This document shows positions 7,386 to 42,843 of a stretch of 42,843 nt of DNA, piece after piece. Source of the DNA: Phoronis australis (taxonomy: Eukaryota > Animalia > Phoronida); contig NMRA01000544.1 of NCBI GenBank assembly GCA_002633005.1, positions 1 to 42,843 of the forward strand, in the 5' to 3' direction. The notes below the pieces were generated by a model. That model was not told the origin of the DNA, did no database searches, and saw only the letters and a program-made list of their open reading frames with translations. Position 1 is the first letter of the stretch, and each line of letters opens with the position of its first letter. A program made the translations under genes and the position numbers.

Positions 7386-9250
7386 CCGTACTCGAAAAAA
7401 GTTTAAATGAACGCGCCACTCACGATTCGCACCCGAAGAACGACCGCCATTTTGAACTTGCCGCGAACCCGGAAGTACAATTCATTCAGGAACCCAGGCC
7501 GAGAAAACGCCGTCAGTGCGACTGGAGCAGTGCCTGTACTGTTGCAAGCCAGCAGACGGGGATAAAATAATCGAAAGCGCGCCTTAATTTTAATAAAATC
7601 AAACTACGGACAATTTTACCGAATTTGCTGAAGAAATGTGGCGAATAAATTTTGACAGAAATTATTTTGTCAGACTCGGGACCGCAGCCTATCGGACCCG
7701 GTGTGGATCGAGACCAGTCTCTGGCGAACGGTAAATGCATGCGGTTGCAAGCTGTTTTGTCGAAGTAAAATGGTTAAATCATAAATGCTGCATATATTCA
7801 AGGGTACTTTCAGACACTTGCATGAAATTACGCCGGGGCACAAAAAAACAGGAAAATTGAACAAAGTTTCTTTTTTGTAGCAACGTTTGTCAAAGTGTAT
7901 CAACGTTAAATCTTGAAAAATTACAAAGTAGCCGGTTGAACATGCCTTTCAGTTCAGCAAAAGTCGCCATGTTGGTGCCGCCAGAAATGAGACGAAGTCC
8001 AACGGGCATTGTGAGCACATTTATCACCATGTGTAACAACTGCGAGGCTGAAATTTAGTGAACACTGTTAAATCGTGCAGAGTAGTAAGTAAAGATATGT
8101 TTAACTAAATTTCACCGTAATTTGTTGGCGAAAACAATTTACACAAAGTTTTAAACTTGCAACTTATCCCGCTGTCCTCCAATATGGCCGACGCGATCCA
8201 AACAAAGTGACCCCGAAATTTTGCCACACAACTTGCAATTACATTACCCTGCTTGCCCCGATTTTGATACTTTTTCGATTTTTACNCTTATTACATGGTT
8301 AGAGGATGTTATAAGGATCCAAGAAGTACTTACCCCATAACTAATACACAATCCGTACTCGAAAAAAGTTTAAATGAACGCGCCACTCACGATTCGCACC
8401 CGAAGAACGACCGCCATTTTGAACTTGCCGCGAACCCGGAAGTACAATTCATTCAGGAACCCAGGCCGAGAAAACGCCGTCAGTGCGACTGGAGCAGTGC
8501 CTGTACTGTTGCAAGCCAGCATACGGGGATAAAATAATCGAAGGCGCGCCTTAATTTTAATAAAATCAAACTACGGATAATTTTATCGAATTTGCTGAAG
8601 AAATGTGGCGAATAAATTTTGACAGAAATTATTTTGTCAGACTCGGGACCGCAGCCTATCGGACCCGGTGTGGATCGAGACCAGACTCTGGCGAACGGTA
8701 AATGCATGCGGTTGCAAGCTGTTTTGTCGAAGTAAAATGGTCAAATCATAAATGCTGCATATATTCAAGGGTACTTTTAGACACTTGCATGAAATTACGC
8801 CGGGGCACAAAAAACAGGAAAATTGAACAAAGTTTCTTTTTTGTAGCAACGTTTGTCAAAATGTATCAACGTTAAATCTTGAAAAATTACAAAGTAGCCG
8901 ATTGAACATGCCTTTCAGTTCAGCAAAAGTCGCCATGTTGGTGCCGCCAGAAATGAGACGAAGTCCAACGGGCATTGTGAGCACATTTATCACCATGTGT
9001 AACAACTGCGAGGCTGAAATTTGGTGAACACTGTTAAATCGTGCAGAGTAGTAAGTAAAGATATGTTCAACTAAATTCACCGTAATTTGTTGGCGAAAAC
9101 GATTTACACAAAGTTTTAAACTCGTAACTTATCCCGCTGTCCTCCAATATGGCCGACGCGATCCAAACAAAGTGACCACGAAATTTCGCCACACAACTTG
9201 CAATATCTTTACCCTGCTTTCCCCGATTTTGATACTTTTTCGATTTTTAC
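7386..9250. repeat. Two near-identical ~900 bp copies (7386-8285, 8353-9250) either side of a single N at 8286; probable transposon end
   Basis: Both copies start abruptly at CCGTACTCGAAAAAAG with different left flanks. Copy 1 is cut at the N. ORF-track peptides at 7513/8480 and 7670/8637 are the duplicated readings. Confidence 0.92.
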
Positions 9251-24959: not shown

Positions 24960-25556
24960 CCGTAAGAAAGTTACGAGCTGAAATAGAATTTTTAATAATG
25001 GACGCCTTTATTTTCATAAATTATGCTAATTTATCATGCAACTATAAGCTATAAGCACTAGAAGAATTGTGAATAATGGCGGCCTTAATTTGCATAAATT
25101 ATGCAAATTGACAACGTATTCACCAAAAAACTTCCACTATTAAATTCGTTGGCCATCGAAACATGGGTTGAAGCATCAAAGTAACCTGCCTGCAGTGCTT
25201 GGTAAGGAAATTATAAGCAAAAATAGAATTTTGCATAACGATGGCCTTAATTTGCATAAATTATGCAAAATGACAATTTATTCACCAAAAACCTTGCACT
25301 ATTAAATTCATTGACCATAAAAATATGGGTAAAAACGTCAAAATTATCTGGCTGCAGAGCTTGGTAAGGAAATTATAAGCAAATTAAAATAAAATTTTGC
25401 ATAATGGCGACCTTAATTCGCATATTTAAAAAATGCTCAAGGGTTGCGAACGGTCACCCTCCTAAATCATGGTTACTTAACCCTAGGCTACATGAAACAG
25501 CAAAGAAAAAAACTTTATACGGCAAAACCAGGTTCAACAACCTGGCTCCCGGACTA
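24960..25556. mobile_element. Academ-like non-autonomous end with internal ~164 bp tandem units
   Basis: Units beginning aatggcggccttaatttgcataaattatgcaaa at ~25074, ~25238 and ~25402. Terminus ...CCGGACTA (reverse TAGTCCGG). A related motif set occurs at ~16650-16997. Confidence 0.55.
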
Positions 25557-34418: not shown

Positions 34419-34674
34419 GAATTCTGGACGGTGACTATAATAATCAGTGGAAGGAACAAAGACGATTCTCGCTGCAAAATCTAAAAGTGTTTGGCTTTGG
34501 AAAACGTCGGTTTGAAGGCAACATTATCAAGGAGATCAGTTGCCTAGTGCAAGAACTGAGAAATAAAAACTGCCAACCTTTTGCCATCAATCATCTCTTC
34601 GCTGTTTGCACTTCAAACGTAATTTGTTCCATGGCCTTTGGTGAGAGATTTGACTACAATGATCAAACCTTCAA
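34419..34674 (+). CDS. Cytochrome P450 exon 3
   Basis: (G)ILDGDYNNQWKEQRRFSLQNLKVFGFGKRRFE...SNVICSMAFGERFDYNDQTF(K): C-helix WxxxR and 'SNVICS..FG.RFDY.D'. Acceptor ttaaAG, donor AA|GTAAGT. Phases 1 and 2 match. Confidence 0.93.
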
Positions 34675-35511
34675 GTAAGTTATTGTGCATGTATGAATTG
34701 AGGTGTTGAGATTGTACGATCATTCCAGACGACTTTGAATACTGATCAAAAAGCGGTCAACTAGATACCATAGACGATGGTGTAAATAATCAATAAATAT
34801 TTAGGGATTAAAGCTCGAGATTAGTCGATTTCATTTTATTTACCTCATTTGTTGGTGTGAGAGTGGACATTCCGTACCTTTCTTAAAGTGATAAGTCGGG
34901 TTCACCAGGAGATATTTATTATAAGATAATTTATGCTTGTATTGAATTGAAAAGTGTTTTGAAACCAGTATTACTGATAAGCTTATGTGGTAGGATTCAT
35001 GAATTACGAGGGGGCCTATTCAGACACACCGGTTGTGTATAATGAAGCCTAGTTTTCTAAATCGGCAATCTGTGCTAACACTTCATATTTGCAGTACGTT
35101 AAAGTTTAGAGAAGTAATATCGCCTCTAGGTGTGCGTATTTCCAAGTTGTTCCAATCTTGAAAAAGGTTTTTCACTAATTTGATTTTCGTAGACTTGAAA
35201 TGTAATAAAACAGCTCGTGAGTTTTCACTTGCTATATAATTCTTAACTATTGCAAGTTGTTTTGGTTTACGTCCCATTTGAGCACAAGTCACCCAGACAG
35301 CTTGGACTTTACAAAGATTGACAATTACATTAACGTTGTTCATTGAGATAGTTCCACGCATGTTCAGCTGTCGCTTTTCGCGAGATAACACCTTCCCTCA
35401 CTTCCTCGTTGTGTCAGAAATTGTCAGATAATGGATGTTATGAGTATCAGTGTAGTGACACTACGTTGTTACGGCATTTGTAACTTGCTTCCAACCTTCA
35501 ACCTTTTCTAG

Positions 35512-36073
35512 GTACTTACTTGACGCCTTAATGAGGTATTTCGACACACGAGCTCAGCCACCGATATCGGAGTTACAGAGTTATCTGAGATGGATGCCGA
35601 GCGCAAGAAACTATCGCAAGAAAGTCATCAAATACAGCAACCAGCTACTTGACTTCTGTCAAAGTAGAATAGACGAACATATTCAAACTTTCAACAAGGA
35701 CAATCTACGGGATTTTGTAGATGGTTACTTAGCTGAGATTAACACTACCTCAAGCAAATCGTATTCTGTGGAGCAGCTCAAGCGGATCTTATTTGAGATA
35801 TTCGTCGGCGGGACGGAGACTACTTCAACTTTTCTCCAGTGGTCCATGATTTACATGGCCAACAATCCAGCTGTTCAAGACAAGGTCAAGGCCGAGTTGG
35901 ATGCAGTGTTTGGAACCGGCATGTCTTCATTGCAAGAGAGGCACCGGCTTCCTTACACTGAGGCGACGCTTTTGGAACTACAGCGGATCTCTTCAGTTCT
36001 TACGCTGACGCCGTTCCATAAAGCTCTGAAGGACACTGAAGTTGGTGGTGTCCCTGTACCTGCCAACACTATG
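35512..36073 (+). CDS. Cytochrome P450 exon 4 (F-K helices)
   Basis: Acceptor ttttctAG. Contains RDFVDGYL, I-helix EIFVGGTETTS, 'P.VQ.KV..ELD', 'LPYTEATLLELQR' (ExxR) and 'VPANTM'. Donor ATG|GTATAA, phase 0. Confidence 0.96.
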
Positions 36074-37675
36074 GTATAATTTAAAATTCTTTCATTTTCT
36101 AAGTATTTTATAAACTCAATAACTGAATTTTAGTCTTAGCCATTCCATCATAATCGTCACCAGTCAACACTCATCGCCATTTGCATCAGCGTAACCATCA
36201 CTATAGTCACCATCACCTCCGTCATGAACACCATCGTCATCATGCTCTCCGTCATTCTGAACAACTGTACTATGAATGAGGAATATGAAATGAGATCACT
36301 TGTGTTTGGATAGCTCCTTGATTCTGAACTTCTATTCTCAACAGCACGCCTTGCCTAAATTCTATAAAACGGTCGCAATTGTCCACTCGCAGATTTCTAT
36401 TTTAGTAAGTTTGATGGATAGTTAGTAGTTAGGTCTATGATGACATAAACTCTCCAAAAGCAGACGATAATCGTACCCACGTGACCCAATTATGTCCACT
36501 GATCGGGATCGTGAACACGGTGTAACTTTCACCGCTGTGTTCGTAGTTTTCATAACACTATTCTTCCTGGACCTGGTTGTATAAAAGTTGCTGGATATCA
36601 ACCGAGACGTCGGATTATCACACGGTGCTAATATTGAGCAATGTACTTGGTGTCATGCAACAATGTAACTTATTCAACGGATATGCTTTAGGTTTTATGA
36701 AACCGAGCCGCGAAGGGGAATCAGCAACACCCATATTCGTTAGACTCAGTTTTCACTTTGCCTATCAGAACACACCTCAATGGACTCGTCACCCTTTCTT
36801 CACTCTGTCAAATACTGTATGCAAAGAACGAAAACATTTTGAGCCTATTAATTCATATCCTTAGCCCTACAGGTGAGCACAGAAACTTTATTCTCTCTTT
36901 CATTTTTTACCCTTTCACTTCTACTAAAAATCAAGGTGGACTGAGAAAAAAGGGGTGAAAACGCAAAATTAGCATTTTTCGCACCAACACCACCATTTTC
37001 TTGCCTATGCTCTACTAAATCCAACATTAGATTTTGAAAGCAAATTTCTACAATTGTGGTCCAAAAGTACTATCAACCAACTAGATTTTTTTTGCAAATC
37101 TGGCTTGTTTGAGGGCTACATGAAATCGCAACCAATTTCTCAGTCGCTACCCAGCAATGCACAATTGCAACAAGGCGCAGCAATCTTGAAGAACTGCGCA
37201 GCTACAGCCGAGTAAGTGGTATTTTTTCAATCTCATCATGTTCACAAATACATGTACAAACAAACCAGCTTCATTTAGCTTACATGCAATACATACCCGA
37301 AATGCCTCCAAGCCTGGCCTATGTTAGTCCCTCTGCTGTCAGTGATATACAACAATTTCATTTTATGTAAAATTTTCTGGAGCATTGTATTACACCTCCC
37401 TGTAAACAAATGGATACGAGCATCATCTGGACAAATTACGCTTGTCAAGGACTGGTTTGACTGTTTACAATTTTTTAACACGACAAAAACAAATACATCT
37501 TTACTGTCGCTTTAAAAGCATAAATGACATTAACAGATTAAGAAAAGGTGGATTATGGTCCTTCACAAAACCTACTACTGATTTTACTCTCCCTACATAT
37601 TTAGATGGGCTTTTTGAGAGTTATCAATAACTGTTCTCCTCTTTGCCCATGCAGTTTCTCTGTACTGTTTTTCAG

Positions 37676-37808
37676 GTTGCTGTTAACCTATACTCCGTGT
37701 TGTATGATCCTGCTTTGTTCCCTGATCCGGAAGAGTTTCGACCCGAGAGATTCCTGACCAGCGACTTCAGGTTCGAGCGCAACGAGCGTGTTATACCCTT
37801 TGGATTAG
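37676..37808 (+). CDS. Cytochrome P450 exon 5 (PERF region, start of heme loop), copy 1
   Basis: Acceptor tttttcAG, then VAVNLYSVLYDPALFPDPEEFRPERFL...VIPFGL(G). Donor G|GTAAGG falls just before the expected xRxCxG motif. Confidence 0.94.
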
Positions 37809-38043
37809 GTAAGGCCAAGACAGTAATCCATTTCATTTGACGTACCTTCCACTTCAATAAGATGCCCAGCCGAAATTTTGTGCTGTTCCACACAACCTAA
37901 GGTCTCCCAGTGATCCCCCAATTTAACTCGAAACTCGACTCGATAATTCACCAATCGCGTGGCAGGCTTTAAGTAAATTTCACGTTTCATGGTATATGAT
38001 TGCTTAATTTTCTGATCGAGTCTCGTATAAAGTTTGGTGGTCA

Positions 38044-38069
38044 TAATAATATTTATAATAATAATGATA

Positions 38070-38100
<31 letters not shown>

Positions 38101-38114
38101 TAAATAATAATAAT
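38044..38114. repeat. (ATA/ATG)n trinucleotide microsatellite (also ~38935-39004)
   Basis: ataataatgata... run. It produces the spurious poly-Ile ORFs on the minus strand. Confidence 0.95.
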
Positions 38115-38255
38115 AGATATATTAGAATCACACAATTACCGAGAAATAAATGAAAAACATAAAAACACAAGACAAAAAAATAAAAGTACAAGAGCAAGGC
38201 TCTGATAACATAAGAAATCAAAGACTCCTTTCCATTATGGTCCGTCACAGGGCCT

Positions 38256-38510
38256 GGGGTCTGTTTCATTAAAAATGATTTAAGACTTCAGGCAGAAAAA
38301 TGCTCCACACAACTATTTCCGAAATATAATCAAATCTTCCTTGATCAAAAGTATGAAGTGTCGGAGCATATACACATAATTTCTTTAAATACTTCAGACT
38401 GTCATACCCTTATAATTACATTGCTAAACTTTTATTCACCAACTATGAAGTTTGAGCTTAAGACCAAATTACTGTCTTACGTCTTAATTCGTTTCCATGA
38501 AACGGACCCC
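38256..38510. mobile_element. Harbinger-type MITE (repeated at ~39146-39400 inside the duplicated block)
   Basis: TIRs GGGGTCTGTTTCAT ... ATGAAACGGACCCC. Confidence 0.72.
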
Positions 38511-38567
38511 ATGGTTTGGACATCTTCAAAATNTTTGCCCATGCAGTTTCTCTGTACTGTTTTTCAG

Positions 38568-38700
38568 GTTGCTGTTAACCTATACTCCGTGTTGTATGAT
38601 CCTGCTTTGTTCCCTGATCCGGAAGAGTTTCGACCCGAGAGATTCCTGACCAGCGACTTCAGGTTCGAGCGCAACGAGCGTGTTATACCCTTTGGATTAG
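38568..38700 (+). CDS. Cytochrome P450 exon 5, duplicate copy 2 (probably allelic/assembly duplicate)
   Basis: Same exon sequence and splice sites 892 bp downstream, inside a duplicated block that starts immediately after the N at 38533. Confidence 0.6.
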
Positions 38701-38961
38701 GTAAGGCCAAGACAGTAATCCATTTCATTTGACGTACCTTCCACTTCAATAAGATGCCCAGCCGAAATTTTGTGCTGTTCCACACAACCTAAGGTCTCCC
38801 AGTGATCCCCCAATTTAACTCGAAACTCGACTCGATAATTCACCAATCGCGTGGCAGGCTTTAAGTAAATTTCACGTTTCATGGTATATGATTGCTTAAT
38901 TTTCTGATCGAGTCTCGTATAAAGCTTGGTGGGCATAATAATAATTATAATAATACTGATA

Positions 38962-38993
<32 letters not shown>

Positions 38994-39698
38994 TAATAAT
39001 AATAGATATATTAGAATCACACAATTACCGAGAAATAAATGAAAAACATAAAAACACAAGACAAAAAAAATAAAAGTACAAGAGCAAGGCTCTGATAACA
39101 TATGAAATCAAAGACTCCTTTCCATTATGGTCCGTCACAGGGCCTGGGGTCTGTTTCATTAAAAATGATTTAAGACTTCAGGCAGAAAAACGCTCCACAC
39201 AACTATTTCCGAAATATAATCAAATCTTCCTTGATCAAAAGTATGAAGTGTCGGAGCATATACACATAATTTCTTTAAATACTTCAGACTGTCATACCCT
39301 TATAATTACATTTCTAAACTTTTATTCACCAACTGTGAAGTTTGAGCTTAAGACCAAATTACTGTCTTACGTCTTAATTCGTTTTCATGAAACGGACCCC
39401 ATGGCTTGGACATCTTAAAAATTCACCATTTTCAAAATACCCGCTAAGGAAAACTCTGTAGTCACCATAAAGTTTCAAATTCCCCTATTAGTGTTGACCT
39501 GATGTTCTGTGGAGTCATCCAAGTAGTTCCAAAAGCATCAATATAAGGACCTGAAGGTTTTTTTCCGAGACGGCAAGTGTCACAGAAACGCGAGGCATAA
39601 AGTAGTCGATGATTTTTAGGAAAAATATCAATCGAAAGCTTCTTGATGCTGCTTGTACAACCGGACAGGTCAAAGGTTGTTGGGCTTGCCATTGACAT

Positions 39699-39737: not shown

Positions 39738-42438
39738 GTTAACTCTGTGACGCTTTTACCTTAATTCACGTTTTTGACATGAAATCCTGACCTCATTTCA
39801 TTGTGCTTTAATCTCCCGTCTGTTTAATTTCCTTGAAAAATGTAATATAATCCCACTTAAAAACCCTGATTGACCCCGAATGCTATAGAGAATTTGACAG
39901 GTCAGTGGTGTGTTCAGCATGTATGGATAACGCACTTTTTCAAAAATCTATTGCACAATATTTCGTTATGCAAGAGGGGGACATGCCACCTTCGTCTTCT
40001 ATACGGCGTGCATAGAATTACTGTAACAGCTTGGAGCGTATTCAAACATTGAAGCATAATAATTGAAAACTGATAGTTTATCTTCTATAAATAATGATCA
40101 AATATTTGACAAAATCTTTCCACTGGAAGAGTTCCGAAAAGTTCATAACTATGAATGAAATACAGCAGGCTTCCACAATCCCCTCTTTGTAAACTACCGG
40201 CGAAAGGCACGGGAGGTGAGCCGTCTTTGACAATTGAATGCAATAGAAACCAATTGGCGTTGTGTGTCGAGTGCGGCAGGTTTTCAACATCTCGGAGTAT
40301 CTATTATATGGTTACAACTCTGTTTCTCACTCCCTCTGATTTTCTGATCCATGTCCGGTTTTCATTTTGTAGCTGTCATTTTAGTATTTGGTCTTTCTGC
40401 AATGGCTTCCGACTAATGATGTTGTGAGCAAAGAAGTGAAACGTCTGTATATCTACATATAGTATGTAGTGTTGAAAATATGACATCGTTGGCTAAAGCT
40501 CTTGGTATTTGTTTTCTTGGTGTGTTGTTTTGACCTAAAACCACAACCAAAATTTTCTGCGTGATCTATCCAAACCATATTCGAAGGTCTCATGTCAAAG
40601 ATAACGCACGCTTACTGTCCATTAATTTCATGAGACGAAACAAAGTTGAATCGGACGTACTTTACCTGAAACGACAACTAAATCGAATACGACTTTTAAG
40701 CTACTTTTACACGAGAGACAGTTGTCACCGTGTAAGTTGTCGCGGCGCTACTTGCTCCACTATAGTTGCATTTACACGACATTAGATCGCAAACTGGGTC
40801 AGCATGAGCCGACACGAAGACTGTCTGTGCATGCTCACATAAACAATAGTGAACGTCCAAACCACCTGGAATGTCAGCGGATCACCCACATGTACGCTAT
40901 TAAGCAAGCGCTTTGAAAGATGATCCCTTTCCGCCCTGTCCTAGTTGTGTTTAGATGTGTAGTTAAAACTGGAGCATCTGATCTAGTGCAACTTGCTCTA
41001 CCTATCAAGCCGGTGTCAAAAATGGCCTCTCGTGGCAACTTGTTTACACACACACACTTGCTTCCGATCAATTGTTCCGTGTTAGTTGCTCCTTGTCAGC
41101 TGGCTCTCGTGCAAATGCAACTTAAGGCTCGAAAAATCGTCTCTAGGGCCTTGTTAACATTTTCCAATTATTCTTGTACGACAGTTGTATACGAAAATTG
41201 TTTATGACAATCGGAGCATGTTGACATGGCTGTGACCTACATAAAGAGAGCAGCAGGGAGCTTTTGTCCTAGTAACTTAATTGTCTTTGTAGTCTTTCAG
41301 TTATCCTTCGGTCAGTGGTGGTCATTGCCTCAGGCAAATTATAGTGCCCCGGGTTGTTCATATATAACTTAAAACGTCCCATCCTTTATAGTCCAGTCAT
41401 TTTAGGGATCCAGAGGGCCCAACCTAGAGAAAAGTGTAACAGAAGGTTTTTTGTATTAATGGCATCTTCAAACATCCATTGGTGCCAGAAAAATGTCTAC
41501 CGAAATCTTTGTGGAGGAAGTCGGTTTTTCAATATGGCGGACAACGTGCCGATGTATGCTTACAAGTCGTTCTGTAAAAAAATCTGTGACCCAATAACAA
41601 AGCCAAACTGACCTCTTGCCTATATATTTTGATTTTGATATTGGCATGACAACTTTTGGCCCACGGGCAAACTCGGGGCAGCAAAAAGTACATCTCGCTT
41701 GAATTTTGATTTTGCAAGTGATAATGTACTTTAAATGCTCTTCTGGGTCAATTAGCTACAGCCTACACGCATGGCTTCCCAATAACAATGAAACAACAAG
41801 GAGTAAAATCTGAACATCTTTTATCTTAGTAATGATTATTTTTTTAAAGGATTTCACGTCTCACATGTGTCATGATTATGAAACTACACTGAACTTGACA
41901 ACTGTAGTTGTGTCATTCAGATACATGTACATGTATGTTACCTCAATGATTCATTTTCATCTACAGATCAAGACTTCCATCAAGTGTGAATCAGTTCAGG
42001 AGTTAACTTTGCTTTTTAAGTTGTTTCAATTTTATCACCATTAACGTTCAAGCTAAAAACGGCCAAGCGAGTATCGTATAGTCTCAGAGCTCTATTTGAC
42101 TCGGGCAGCGTCATGCGTAATAAGACAACTTAATTGGCAATATATTTTCATCCCAAAGTACAGTATTAATGCTCTACATATGTACAAATTGTTTACCCCG
42201 TTGACTGTCATCTGTTTGAACTAATATCACATCCGTAGTACGCCAATCCATTTCACTTGTTAATGTTACTAATCCATCAGTTTTCTATTTGCAAGATTTA
42301 GCCTAACTCAATGTAATTAAATTAGTAGTGGTGGGAATTTTCATGCCAACCCTAGTGTTTATAGCTTTTGTCCTTACTTCATTACTTTTAGTCTATTCAC
42401 ACACTTGTATATACTTCTCTTTCTCTTGTTAGATAAGC

Positions 42439-42843
42439 ATGTTAATTATGAACTGTATGAATTTATCAGTATTTAACTACAGACATAATAATTATAATTG
42501 TTCGGGTGTCTGGAAAACAAAAATACTCCACTGCTTTTCGTCTATTACGCTCGACCTCACTCTTCTACTACGAAAACGACCCCGAACTGAGCACTTACGT
42601 AATGTTTACTGCACAATGAAGAACTCATGTTGTGATATCCGAGTTATCATTGAGCAAAGTCTTTTGACTGCTGGTGATATGGAGGTCAATCCAGGACCAG
42701 GCACTCAGGGTTTAGCCAGCTTCAAGGTCTTATTCACTAATATCAACAGTATCAAGGCGAACAATCTTTCAAGATTTGATCTTCTCAAGCAAGTTATTAC
42801 AGACAACAATTACATGGTCATTGCTATATGTGAATCTGGAACA
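42439..42843 (+). mobile_element. 5' part of a non-LTR retrotransposon ORF: N-terminal extension, 2A-like peptide, APE endonuclease start; truncated by window end
   Basis: Frame open for 135 codons from ATG 42439 to the window end. Reads ...IIEQSLLTAGDMEVNPGP GTQGLASFKVLFTNINSIKANNLSRFDLLKQVITDNNYMVIAICESGT. 'TNINSI' and 'VIAICES' match APE motifs I and II (xNxxS/GL; D/xIIxIxET). Confidence 0.82.

What the first reader, a model, noticed from the sequence alone, without database searches (positions are those of the whole stretch)
42439..42843. 2A-like ribosome-skipping motif (non-canonical D-M-E variant) fused to an APE endonuclease, hidden at the window edge
Seen: an uninterrupted frame from ATG 42439 to the window end, missed by the ORF track because it has no stop. 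It encodes ~79 aa, then DMEVNPGP (42676-42699, preceded by the helical run IIEQSLLTAG), then an APE-like N-terminus (VLFTNINSI...VIAICES). Known: StopGo/2A peptides have the consensus D(V/I)ExNPG|P, and 2A-like sequences occur just before the APE domain in CR1/L2-group and L1Tc-type non-LTR retrotransposons. Inference: this is a fairly intact 2A-bearing LINE. Met in place of Val/Ile could tune the ratio of fused to free ORF2 protein, and skipping would release a ~86 aa Cys-containing leader of unknown function. APE motif II reads ESG rather than ETW/ESW.
Basis: partly seen in the sequence, partly recalled or inferred. Interest (0 to 1): 0.78.

Follow-up and report, generated by a model that had tools for sequence, protein, structure and literature searches.

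The report
Known 2A-LINE; Met is one-copy mutation
This is the front end of a multi-copy jumping gene with a virus-style ribosome-skipping motif just before an endonuclease-like region, a known arrangement, and its unusual methionine was seen only in this copy (sister copies carry the standard isoleucine), so it is likely a damaging one-off change rather than a tuning device.

Summary
In detail: the frame is open from ATG 42439 to the window end, with DMEVNPGP at 42676-42699 followed by an APE-like start. It is the 5' end of a multi-copy LINE. Relatives share the 2A-APE layout, and one reaches into RT.

The claimed novelty fails. Sister copies read GAC ATA, giving canonical D-I-E, in 39 of 39 RNA reads over the site and in 9 contigs. 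One gapped contig (4% of one run's depth) is unresolved. Met is therefore most likely private to this copy, by mutation or assembly error. Published saturation mutagenesis tolerates only Ile for Val at this position, so Met probably weakens skipping.

ESG at APE motif II fits its subgroup, where seven relatives read EVG. The 86-aa leader has no homologue, and its start codon is uncertain. 2A before APE in LINEs is known (PMC3708506), and this scan noted 2A-LINEs before in other genomes. This element's own RT was not seen, and skipping was not assayed. Verdict: new member of a known kind, low interest.

The parts
41644..42438 (+). Multi-copy 5' region of the element, likely 5' UTR. No ORF1 seen. 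The 5' boundary was not found: 41644 is only where the laid stretch began.
   Evidence: Contigs tile it, and deleted copies join it to the leader. No ORF of 100 codons or more between 39418 and 42433. 19 ATGs.
42439..42642 (+). N-terminal leader frame, codons 1-68, with 6 Cys, no homologue and weak hydrophobicity. Start codon uncertain.
   Evidence: Shared without gaps by young contig X1 record 5. Leader-only searches blank. Maximum 19-residue hydropathy 0.99.
42602..42619 (+). 5-codon uORF in the +1 frame whose TGA (42617) overlaps the in-frame ATG 42616. This is a possible alternative ORF2 start giving a 27-aa upstream peptide; it may be chance.
   Evidence: Sequence; frame listing.
42643..42699 (+). 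Class A 2A-like 19-mer VIIEQSLLTAG-DMEVNPG|P. The predicted skip lies between codons 42694-42696 (Gly) and 42697-42699 (Pro).
   Evidence: Same position in relatives.
42676..42681 (+). Asp and Met codons GAT ATG. Sister copies read GAC ATA (Asp-Ile).
   Evidence: 39 of 39 RNA reads; X3 depth 321.8 of 321.8; X1 103.4 of 108; X6 2 of 2.
42721..42843 (+). First ~41 residues of an APE (EEP) endonuclease: motif I Asn (N101) and motif II Glu (E132, read E-S-G). Cut by the window end.
   Evidence: Aligns at 38-48% to relatives with Pfam PF03372/PF14529.

Best explanation
This is the 5' end of one young copy of a multi-copy LINE-type repeat whose open frame carries a 2A-like motif directly before an APE-like start; sister copies read canonical D-I-E, and this copy's Met is most likely a private mutation or assembly error that would weaken skipping. 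In the family, the ribosome is predicted to stall in the 2A and release the short upstream peptide at Gly. It would then restart at Pro to make free APE-RT, drop off, or read through, which lowers and apportions ORF2 protein in an element that appears to lack ORF1 (model of PMC3894237; not assayed here). Shown: frame, motif, multi-copy status, Ile in other copies, 2A-APE-RT layout in relatives. Inferred: RT in this element, CR1-group clade, skipping activity, effect of Met.
For: Other letters at 42678 (C) and 42681 (A): X9 19 of 19 reads, X10 9 of 9, X11 11 of 11 (29 start places in all); X3 depth 321.8 of 321.8 (4 contigs); X1 103.4 of 108 (4 contigs); X6 2 of 2 (1 contig). The copy has other differences from the young contig, two of them non-synonymous (42446, 42527). 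All 10 phmmer hits at E<=1e-3 match the 2A region; 9 of 10 continue into an APE-like start, and P0009 (XP_074651604.1) carries EEP and the start of RVT_1. The profile search gave 119 proteins at E<=1e-10, nearly all with EEP and/or RT domains. 72 of 128 held proteins carry a 2A-like motif; at position 13 of their 76 motifs: I 62, V 12, L 1, M 1. Saturation mutagenesis: V13 tolerated only I in both P2A and F2A (bioRxiv 10.64898/2026.09.24.754024, section 24). Met at p13 is not among the enriched variants in 2,465 viral octapeptides (PMC12846837). The core GDIEVNPGP is scored active in oyster CR1-1_CGi (PMC12338488 supplement 2).
Against: 4.6 of 108 depth in X1 does not show C/A. It equals one gapped contig whose letters at the site were not printed, so a second Met copy is not excluded. 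X1 and X3 are one sample, and reads come from few loci. The profile behind the I/V tally was seeded with canonical 2As. The RT of this element was never read: no genome is held, and two single-protein searches were blank. Rare core variants can be highly active in their native context. Many LINE 2As with canonical cores are weak or inactive (PMC3708506), and only 43 of 580 retroelement contigs had a highly active 2A.
Confidence: 0.85

Rival explanations
1. Met is fixed in a small active subfamily and tunes the ratio of fused to free ORF2 protein.
For: The frame is open and indel-free. One X1 contig does not show the C/A letters. GDME occurs naturally: 5 rows of PMC12338488 supplement 3, all one FMDV-type peptide, activity not tested, and once in P0006. 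Native context can rescue rare variants.
Against: 0 of 39 reads and none of 9 informative contigs show Met. No 2A-APE relative has Met. V13 tolerates only I.
Confidence: 0.05
2. The family's 2A-like sequence (Ile version) is a vestige or linker that skips little or not at all, so ORF2 is made with its leader attached or from a downstream ATG.
For: Lancelet CR1 2As with near-canonical cores were low or inactive. The upstream helix has only 2 Leu, whereas activity rose with 3 or more in bioRxiv 10.64898/2026.06.17.732966 (section 12).
Against: The core is conserved across 72 of 128 relatives. Multi-contig variants near it are synonymous (42640, 42660). SLLTAGD is shared letter for letter with Providence virus 2A3, listed with activity 0.41.
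Confidence: 0.25
3. ORF2 starts at ATG 42616, not 42439. The true upstream peptide is 27 aa, and the first 59 codons are a non-coding or unconstrained stretch; a 5-codon uORF ending in an AUGA overlap could couple initiation.
For: Variants seen in 4 or more contigs: 5 of 5 non-synonymous in codons 1-59, 3 of 3 synonymous after codon 60 (Fisher p 0.018). The leader has no homologue and lacks the hydrophobic segment of relatives (0.99 against 1.7-3.1).
Against: The tally uses only printed rows (40 of 169). Five dropped rows after codon 60, each with 1-3 contigs, were 4 non-synonymous and 1 synonymous. A 59-codon open frame arises in only 2% of shuffles. Relatives have a median 66 residues before the core. 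Such overlaps are common in AT-rich DNA.
Confidence: 0.3

Closest known systems
2A-bearing APE-type non-LTR retrotransposons (CR1, L2, Crack, Rex1, Ingi/L1Tc; PMC3708506), subtype with 2A immediately before APE (e.g. CR1-17_BF, CR1-26_BF, L1Tc)
   Same: 2A about 80 residues from the ORF start, directly before APE; no ORF1 seen upstream; the family core GDIEVNPGP equals that of CR1-1_CGi. A protein carrying the CR1-1_CGi-type 2A (P0082) was pulled by the family profile.
   Different: This copy has Met at core position 2. The leader is not strongly hydrophobic. APE motif II is E-x-G. The clade was not fixed by an RT tree.
Unnamed E-x-G subgroup of 2A-APE LINE proteins (Owenia CAH1783833.1 and CAH1787295.1; Tubulanus XP_074651604.1; P0004, P0005, P0007, P0008, P0014)
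   Same: 38-48% identity over 2A plus APE start; N-I-N-S-I and R-F motifs; E-x-G motif II. They group with the window in a 71-column tree (9 rows, 100/92).
   Different: Their leaders are hydrophobic and unrelated in sequence; none has Met in the core. The tree is weak (long branches) and seven of these proteins seeded the profile.
Class A viral 2A/StopGo peptides (e.g. Providence virus 2A3)
   Same: Leu-Leu-x-(A/S/C)-G before the core; SLLTAGD shared exactly.
   Different: Cellular retroelement context; position 13 is Met in this copy.

Membership tests
Class A 2A/StopGo peptide | Core (D/G/C/N)(V/I)ExNPGP | tested here: not met
   This copy reads D-M-E. Sister copies meet it. It meets the looser GDxExNPGP used.
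Class A 2A/StopGo peptide | Gly before the core and a Leu-rich upstream segment | tested here: met
   SLLTAG precedes the core; only 2 Leu.
Class A 2A/StopGo peptide | Measured peptide-bond skipping at G|P | not testable with these tools
   Needs a reporter assay.
APE-type non-LTR retrotransposon | APE (EEP) domain near the ORF2 N-terminus | tested here: met
   First ~41 residues align to Pfam EEP-positive relatives with motif I Asn and motif II Glu. The fragment alone has no Pfam EEP hit.
APE-type non-LTR retrotransposon | RT domain downstream in the same ORF | tested here: inconclusive
   The window ends first and no genome is held. Relatives P0009, P0015-P0020 and others have RT.
APE-type non-LTR retrotransposon | Dispersed multi-copy family | tested here: met
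   141 contigs of X3 lie on 1200 bases: 17 at 99%+, 44 at 95-99%, 45 at 90-95%, 35 under 90%. No second copy in the window.
APE-type non-LTR retrotransposon | 3' tail and target-site duplication | not testable with these tools
   The 3' end is outside the window.
CR1/L2/Crack clades | Placement in an RT phylogeny | not tested
   No RT for this element and no named reference set. CR1 group is an inference from P0082 and recalled motif likeness.
ORF1-less 2A LINEs (PMC3708506) | No ORF1 upstream of the 2A-bearing ORF | tested here: inconclusive
   No ORF of 100 codons or more in the 3 kb upstream, but the 5' boundary was not mapped.

The most novel reading that the evidence does not exclude
This ORF1-less LINE family stacks two translational brakes in 100 bases: ORF2 is entered by stop-start coupling at an AUGA overlap (5-codon uORF, ATG 42616), then meets a canonical 2A 20 codons later. 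Near-identical copies under three species labels would mark it as recently active or horizontally moving.
Probability: 0.08. Interest if true: 0.45.

Novelty: new member of a known kind. Interest (0 to 1): 0.16.

Why it matters
Little. 2A peptides before the APE domain of LINEs have been described and assayed since 2013 (PMC3708506), and two 2026 preprints screened them at scale. The case is useful as a caution: a non-canonical motif in one repeat copy must be checked against the family. It also supplies a natural Ile/Met pair in one context, an easy test of position 13 outside viral 2As, and points to an E-x-G subgroup of 2A-APE LINEs that includes annelid and nemertean members.

Tried and rejected
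Extending the element: no genome is held. Single-protein searches were blank for longer proteins (0 of 136 candidates) and near-length proteins (0 of 5). Viral contigs: 86 pattern matches, none confirmed. Metagenome contigs gave one locus, L001, a chance match in another frame of a GC-rich bacterial-looking contig, rejected. Contigs of X6 and X7 run past the window end, but their letters were not shown.

Expression: no RNA holder was listed by index except one guessed run. Raw RNA reads lay on the stretch (77, 83 and 29 reads from about a fifth of each run), but only 9, 2 and 0 were 99% alike or more, mate direction differed between runs, and no RNA joints appeared. This shows nothing about expression of this copy. 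A polypyrimidine-AG just before ATG 42439 looked like a splice acceptor; no spliced reads were seen.

Leader homology: none better than E 0.54 among 128 proteins. Of 51 relatives' leaders against upstream DNA, the best was E 0.004 and hydrophobic, rejected. A decayed ORF in the +1 frame upstream was considered and dropped: too many shared stops. Atlas hits for P0001 had low recognition. Rfam was blank for 40500-42843.

Literature: six octapeptides including DMEVNPGP gave no full-text hit. Six DME octapeptides gave none in two PMC12846837 supplements. The PMC3708506 supplement search found no NPGP text, one file unread. Supplements of the two bioRxiv preprints could not be seen; they may hold the exact V13M score and tested DME peptides.

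Full report
Observation. Window 42439-42843 translates as 135 codons without a stop. DMEVNPGP lies at 42676-42699 after IIEQSLLTAG, and an APE-like start follows. It is the only NPGP in the six frames, and GDxExNPGP is expected 6e-6 times per window by chance.

What it is. A search of 1.84 billion representative proteins gave 10 hits at E<=1e-3, all matching the 2A region. Nine continue into an APE-like start; P0006 is a tandem 2A protein without APE. Five of the 10 hit Pfam EEP families at E<=0.01, and P0009 also hits the start of RVT_1 (E 5.8e-6, below the curated cut-off). The named hits are from Owenia (two) and Tubulanus. A profile of eight of these proteins, P0001 included, found 119 proteins at E<=1e-10 among 5,469 candidates, nearly all with EEP and/or RT domains. 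The DNA is a repeat: 141 contigs of run X3 lie on 41644-42843 at identities from under 90% to over 99%, and internally deleted copies join the upstream part to the leader. No ORF of 100 codons lies in the 3 kb upstream. So this is the 5' end of a LINE with at least 800 bases of likely 5' UTR and no visible ORF1. The RT of this element was not seen: no genome is held, and attempts to extend failed.

The Met. At 42678 and 42681 other copies read C and A, turning GAT ATG into GAC ATA (Asp-Ile). This held in X9 19 of 19 reads, X10 9 of 9 and X3 depth 321.8 of 321.8 in 4 contigs, and in X11 11 of 11, X1 103.4 of 108 in 4 contigs and X6 2 of 2 in 1 contig. X5 and X7 do not cover the site. The remaining 4.6 in X1 equals one contig with 13 other letters and 17 gaps whose letters here were not printed. 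X1 and X3 are one sample, and none of the runs need be the source individual, so a true private mutation cannot be told from an assembly error. The copy is young: a collapsed contig (depth 29.4) matches 42328-42677 with 5 other letters and no gap, and the X6 contig matches 42629-42843 with 4 and no gap. Two further differences from that young contig change residues (codons 3 and 30). Among 128 held proteins, 72 carry 76 2A-like motifs, and position 13 is I 62, V 12, L 1, M 1, the Met being in P0006. That tally leans towards I/V because the profile was seeded with such motifs.

Likely effect. In saturation libraries of P2A and F2A, V13 tolerated only Ile (bioRxiv 10.64898/2026.09.24.754024, section 24 read whole; the V13M score itself is in a figure or supplement not seen). 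In 2,465 viral octapeptides, Met at p13 was not among the flagged variants, though the rare variants tested were active in native context (PMC12846837, passages). GDME appears in 5 rows of PMC12338488 supplement 3, all one FMDV-type peptide and untested, against 22 rows of DIEVNPGP. The Met copy therefore probably skips less well; this is inferred.

Motif II and leader. E-S-G is normal for the subgroup: seven close relatives read E-V-G, and the window falls with them and P0014 in a weak 71-column tree (9 rows, 100/92, long-branch warnings). The leader frame is shared by the young subfamily, and 59 open codons arise in 2% of shuffles. But it has no homologue and lacks the hydrophobic segment of relatives. 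Variants carried by 4 or more contigs are 5 of 5 non-synonymous in codons 1-59 and 3 of 3 synonymous afterwards (p 0.018). This uses only printed rows (40 of 169), and five dropped rows after codon 60 with 1-3 contigs were 4 non-synonymous, so it is a hint only. An in-frame ATG at 42616 overlaps the stop of a 5-codon uORF; a 27-aa upstream peptide is as possible as an 86-aa one.

Mechanism. Shown: frame, motif, copy status, Ile in sister copies, layout in relatives. Inferred: in the family the nascent 2A stalls the ribosome, the upstream peptide is released at Gly, and translation restarts at Pro, stops or reads through, which limits ORF2 protein in an ORF1-less element (PMC3894237, part 1 of 3 read). 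Whether this 2A is active is open. Many LINE 2As were weak or inactive (PMC3708506, parts 1-3 of 6 read), and 43 of 580 retroelement contigs had highly active ones. RNA reads do not show expression of this copy.

Comparison and verdict. PMC3708506 describes 2As about 40-80 residues from the ORF2 start in Rex1, L2, Crack, CR1 and Ingi elements, some directly before APE and most without ORF1. bioRxiv 10.64898/2026.06.17.732966 (abstract, sections 12-13 and passages) adds 16 ORF2 clusters. The family core equals that of active CR1-1_CGi (PMC12338488, supplement rows). The CR1-group assignment here is inferred, not tested. Earlier notes of this scan report 2A-LINEs in three other genomes and none like this sequence. 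This is a new member of a known kind, and the feature flagged as novel is most likely noise of one copy. Interest 0.16.

Noticed in passing
window 42629-42843 (run X6, organism B) and 42755-42843 (run X7, organism C): Contigs under two other species labels match at 4 differences in 215 bases and 1 in 89. This could be close relatives, mixed samples or horizontal transfer.
   Followed up: no
window about 34450-37810, + strand: Cytochrome P450 gene in exons (Pfam p450). The exon with the heme cysteine was not found by pattern after 37700, so the LINE may sit in the last intron or the gene is cut.
   Followed up: partly
window 37642-38473 and 38534-39363: An ~890-base near-identical duplication, including a P450 exon, abutting an N at 38533. 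Likely an assembly artefact. A similar ~966-base pair lies at 7386-8285 and 8353-9250 around an N at 8286.
   Followed up: no
protein P0006: A 199-aa protein with three tandem 2A-like motifs and a degenerate fourth, one of them GDMEDNPGP, and no APE.
   Followed up: no
protein P0082: Two 2A-plus-APE-start units in tandem, the second with the CR1-1_CGi-type 2A.
   Followed up: no
proteins P0002 and P0008: Long hydrophobic leaders of about 150 aa that begin with a similar M-x-(I/V)-D...W-R...G-x-F pattern. The window's leader lacks it.
   Followed up: no
window 24962-25424: A tandem repeat of about 162 bases with palindromic cores.
   Followed up: no
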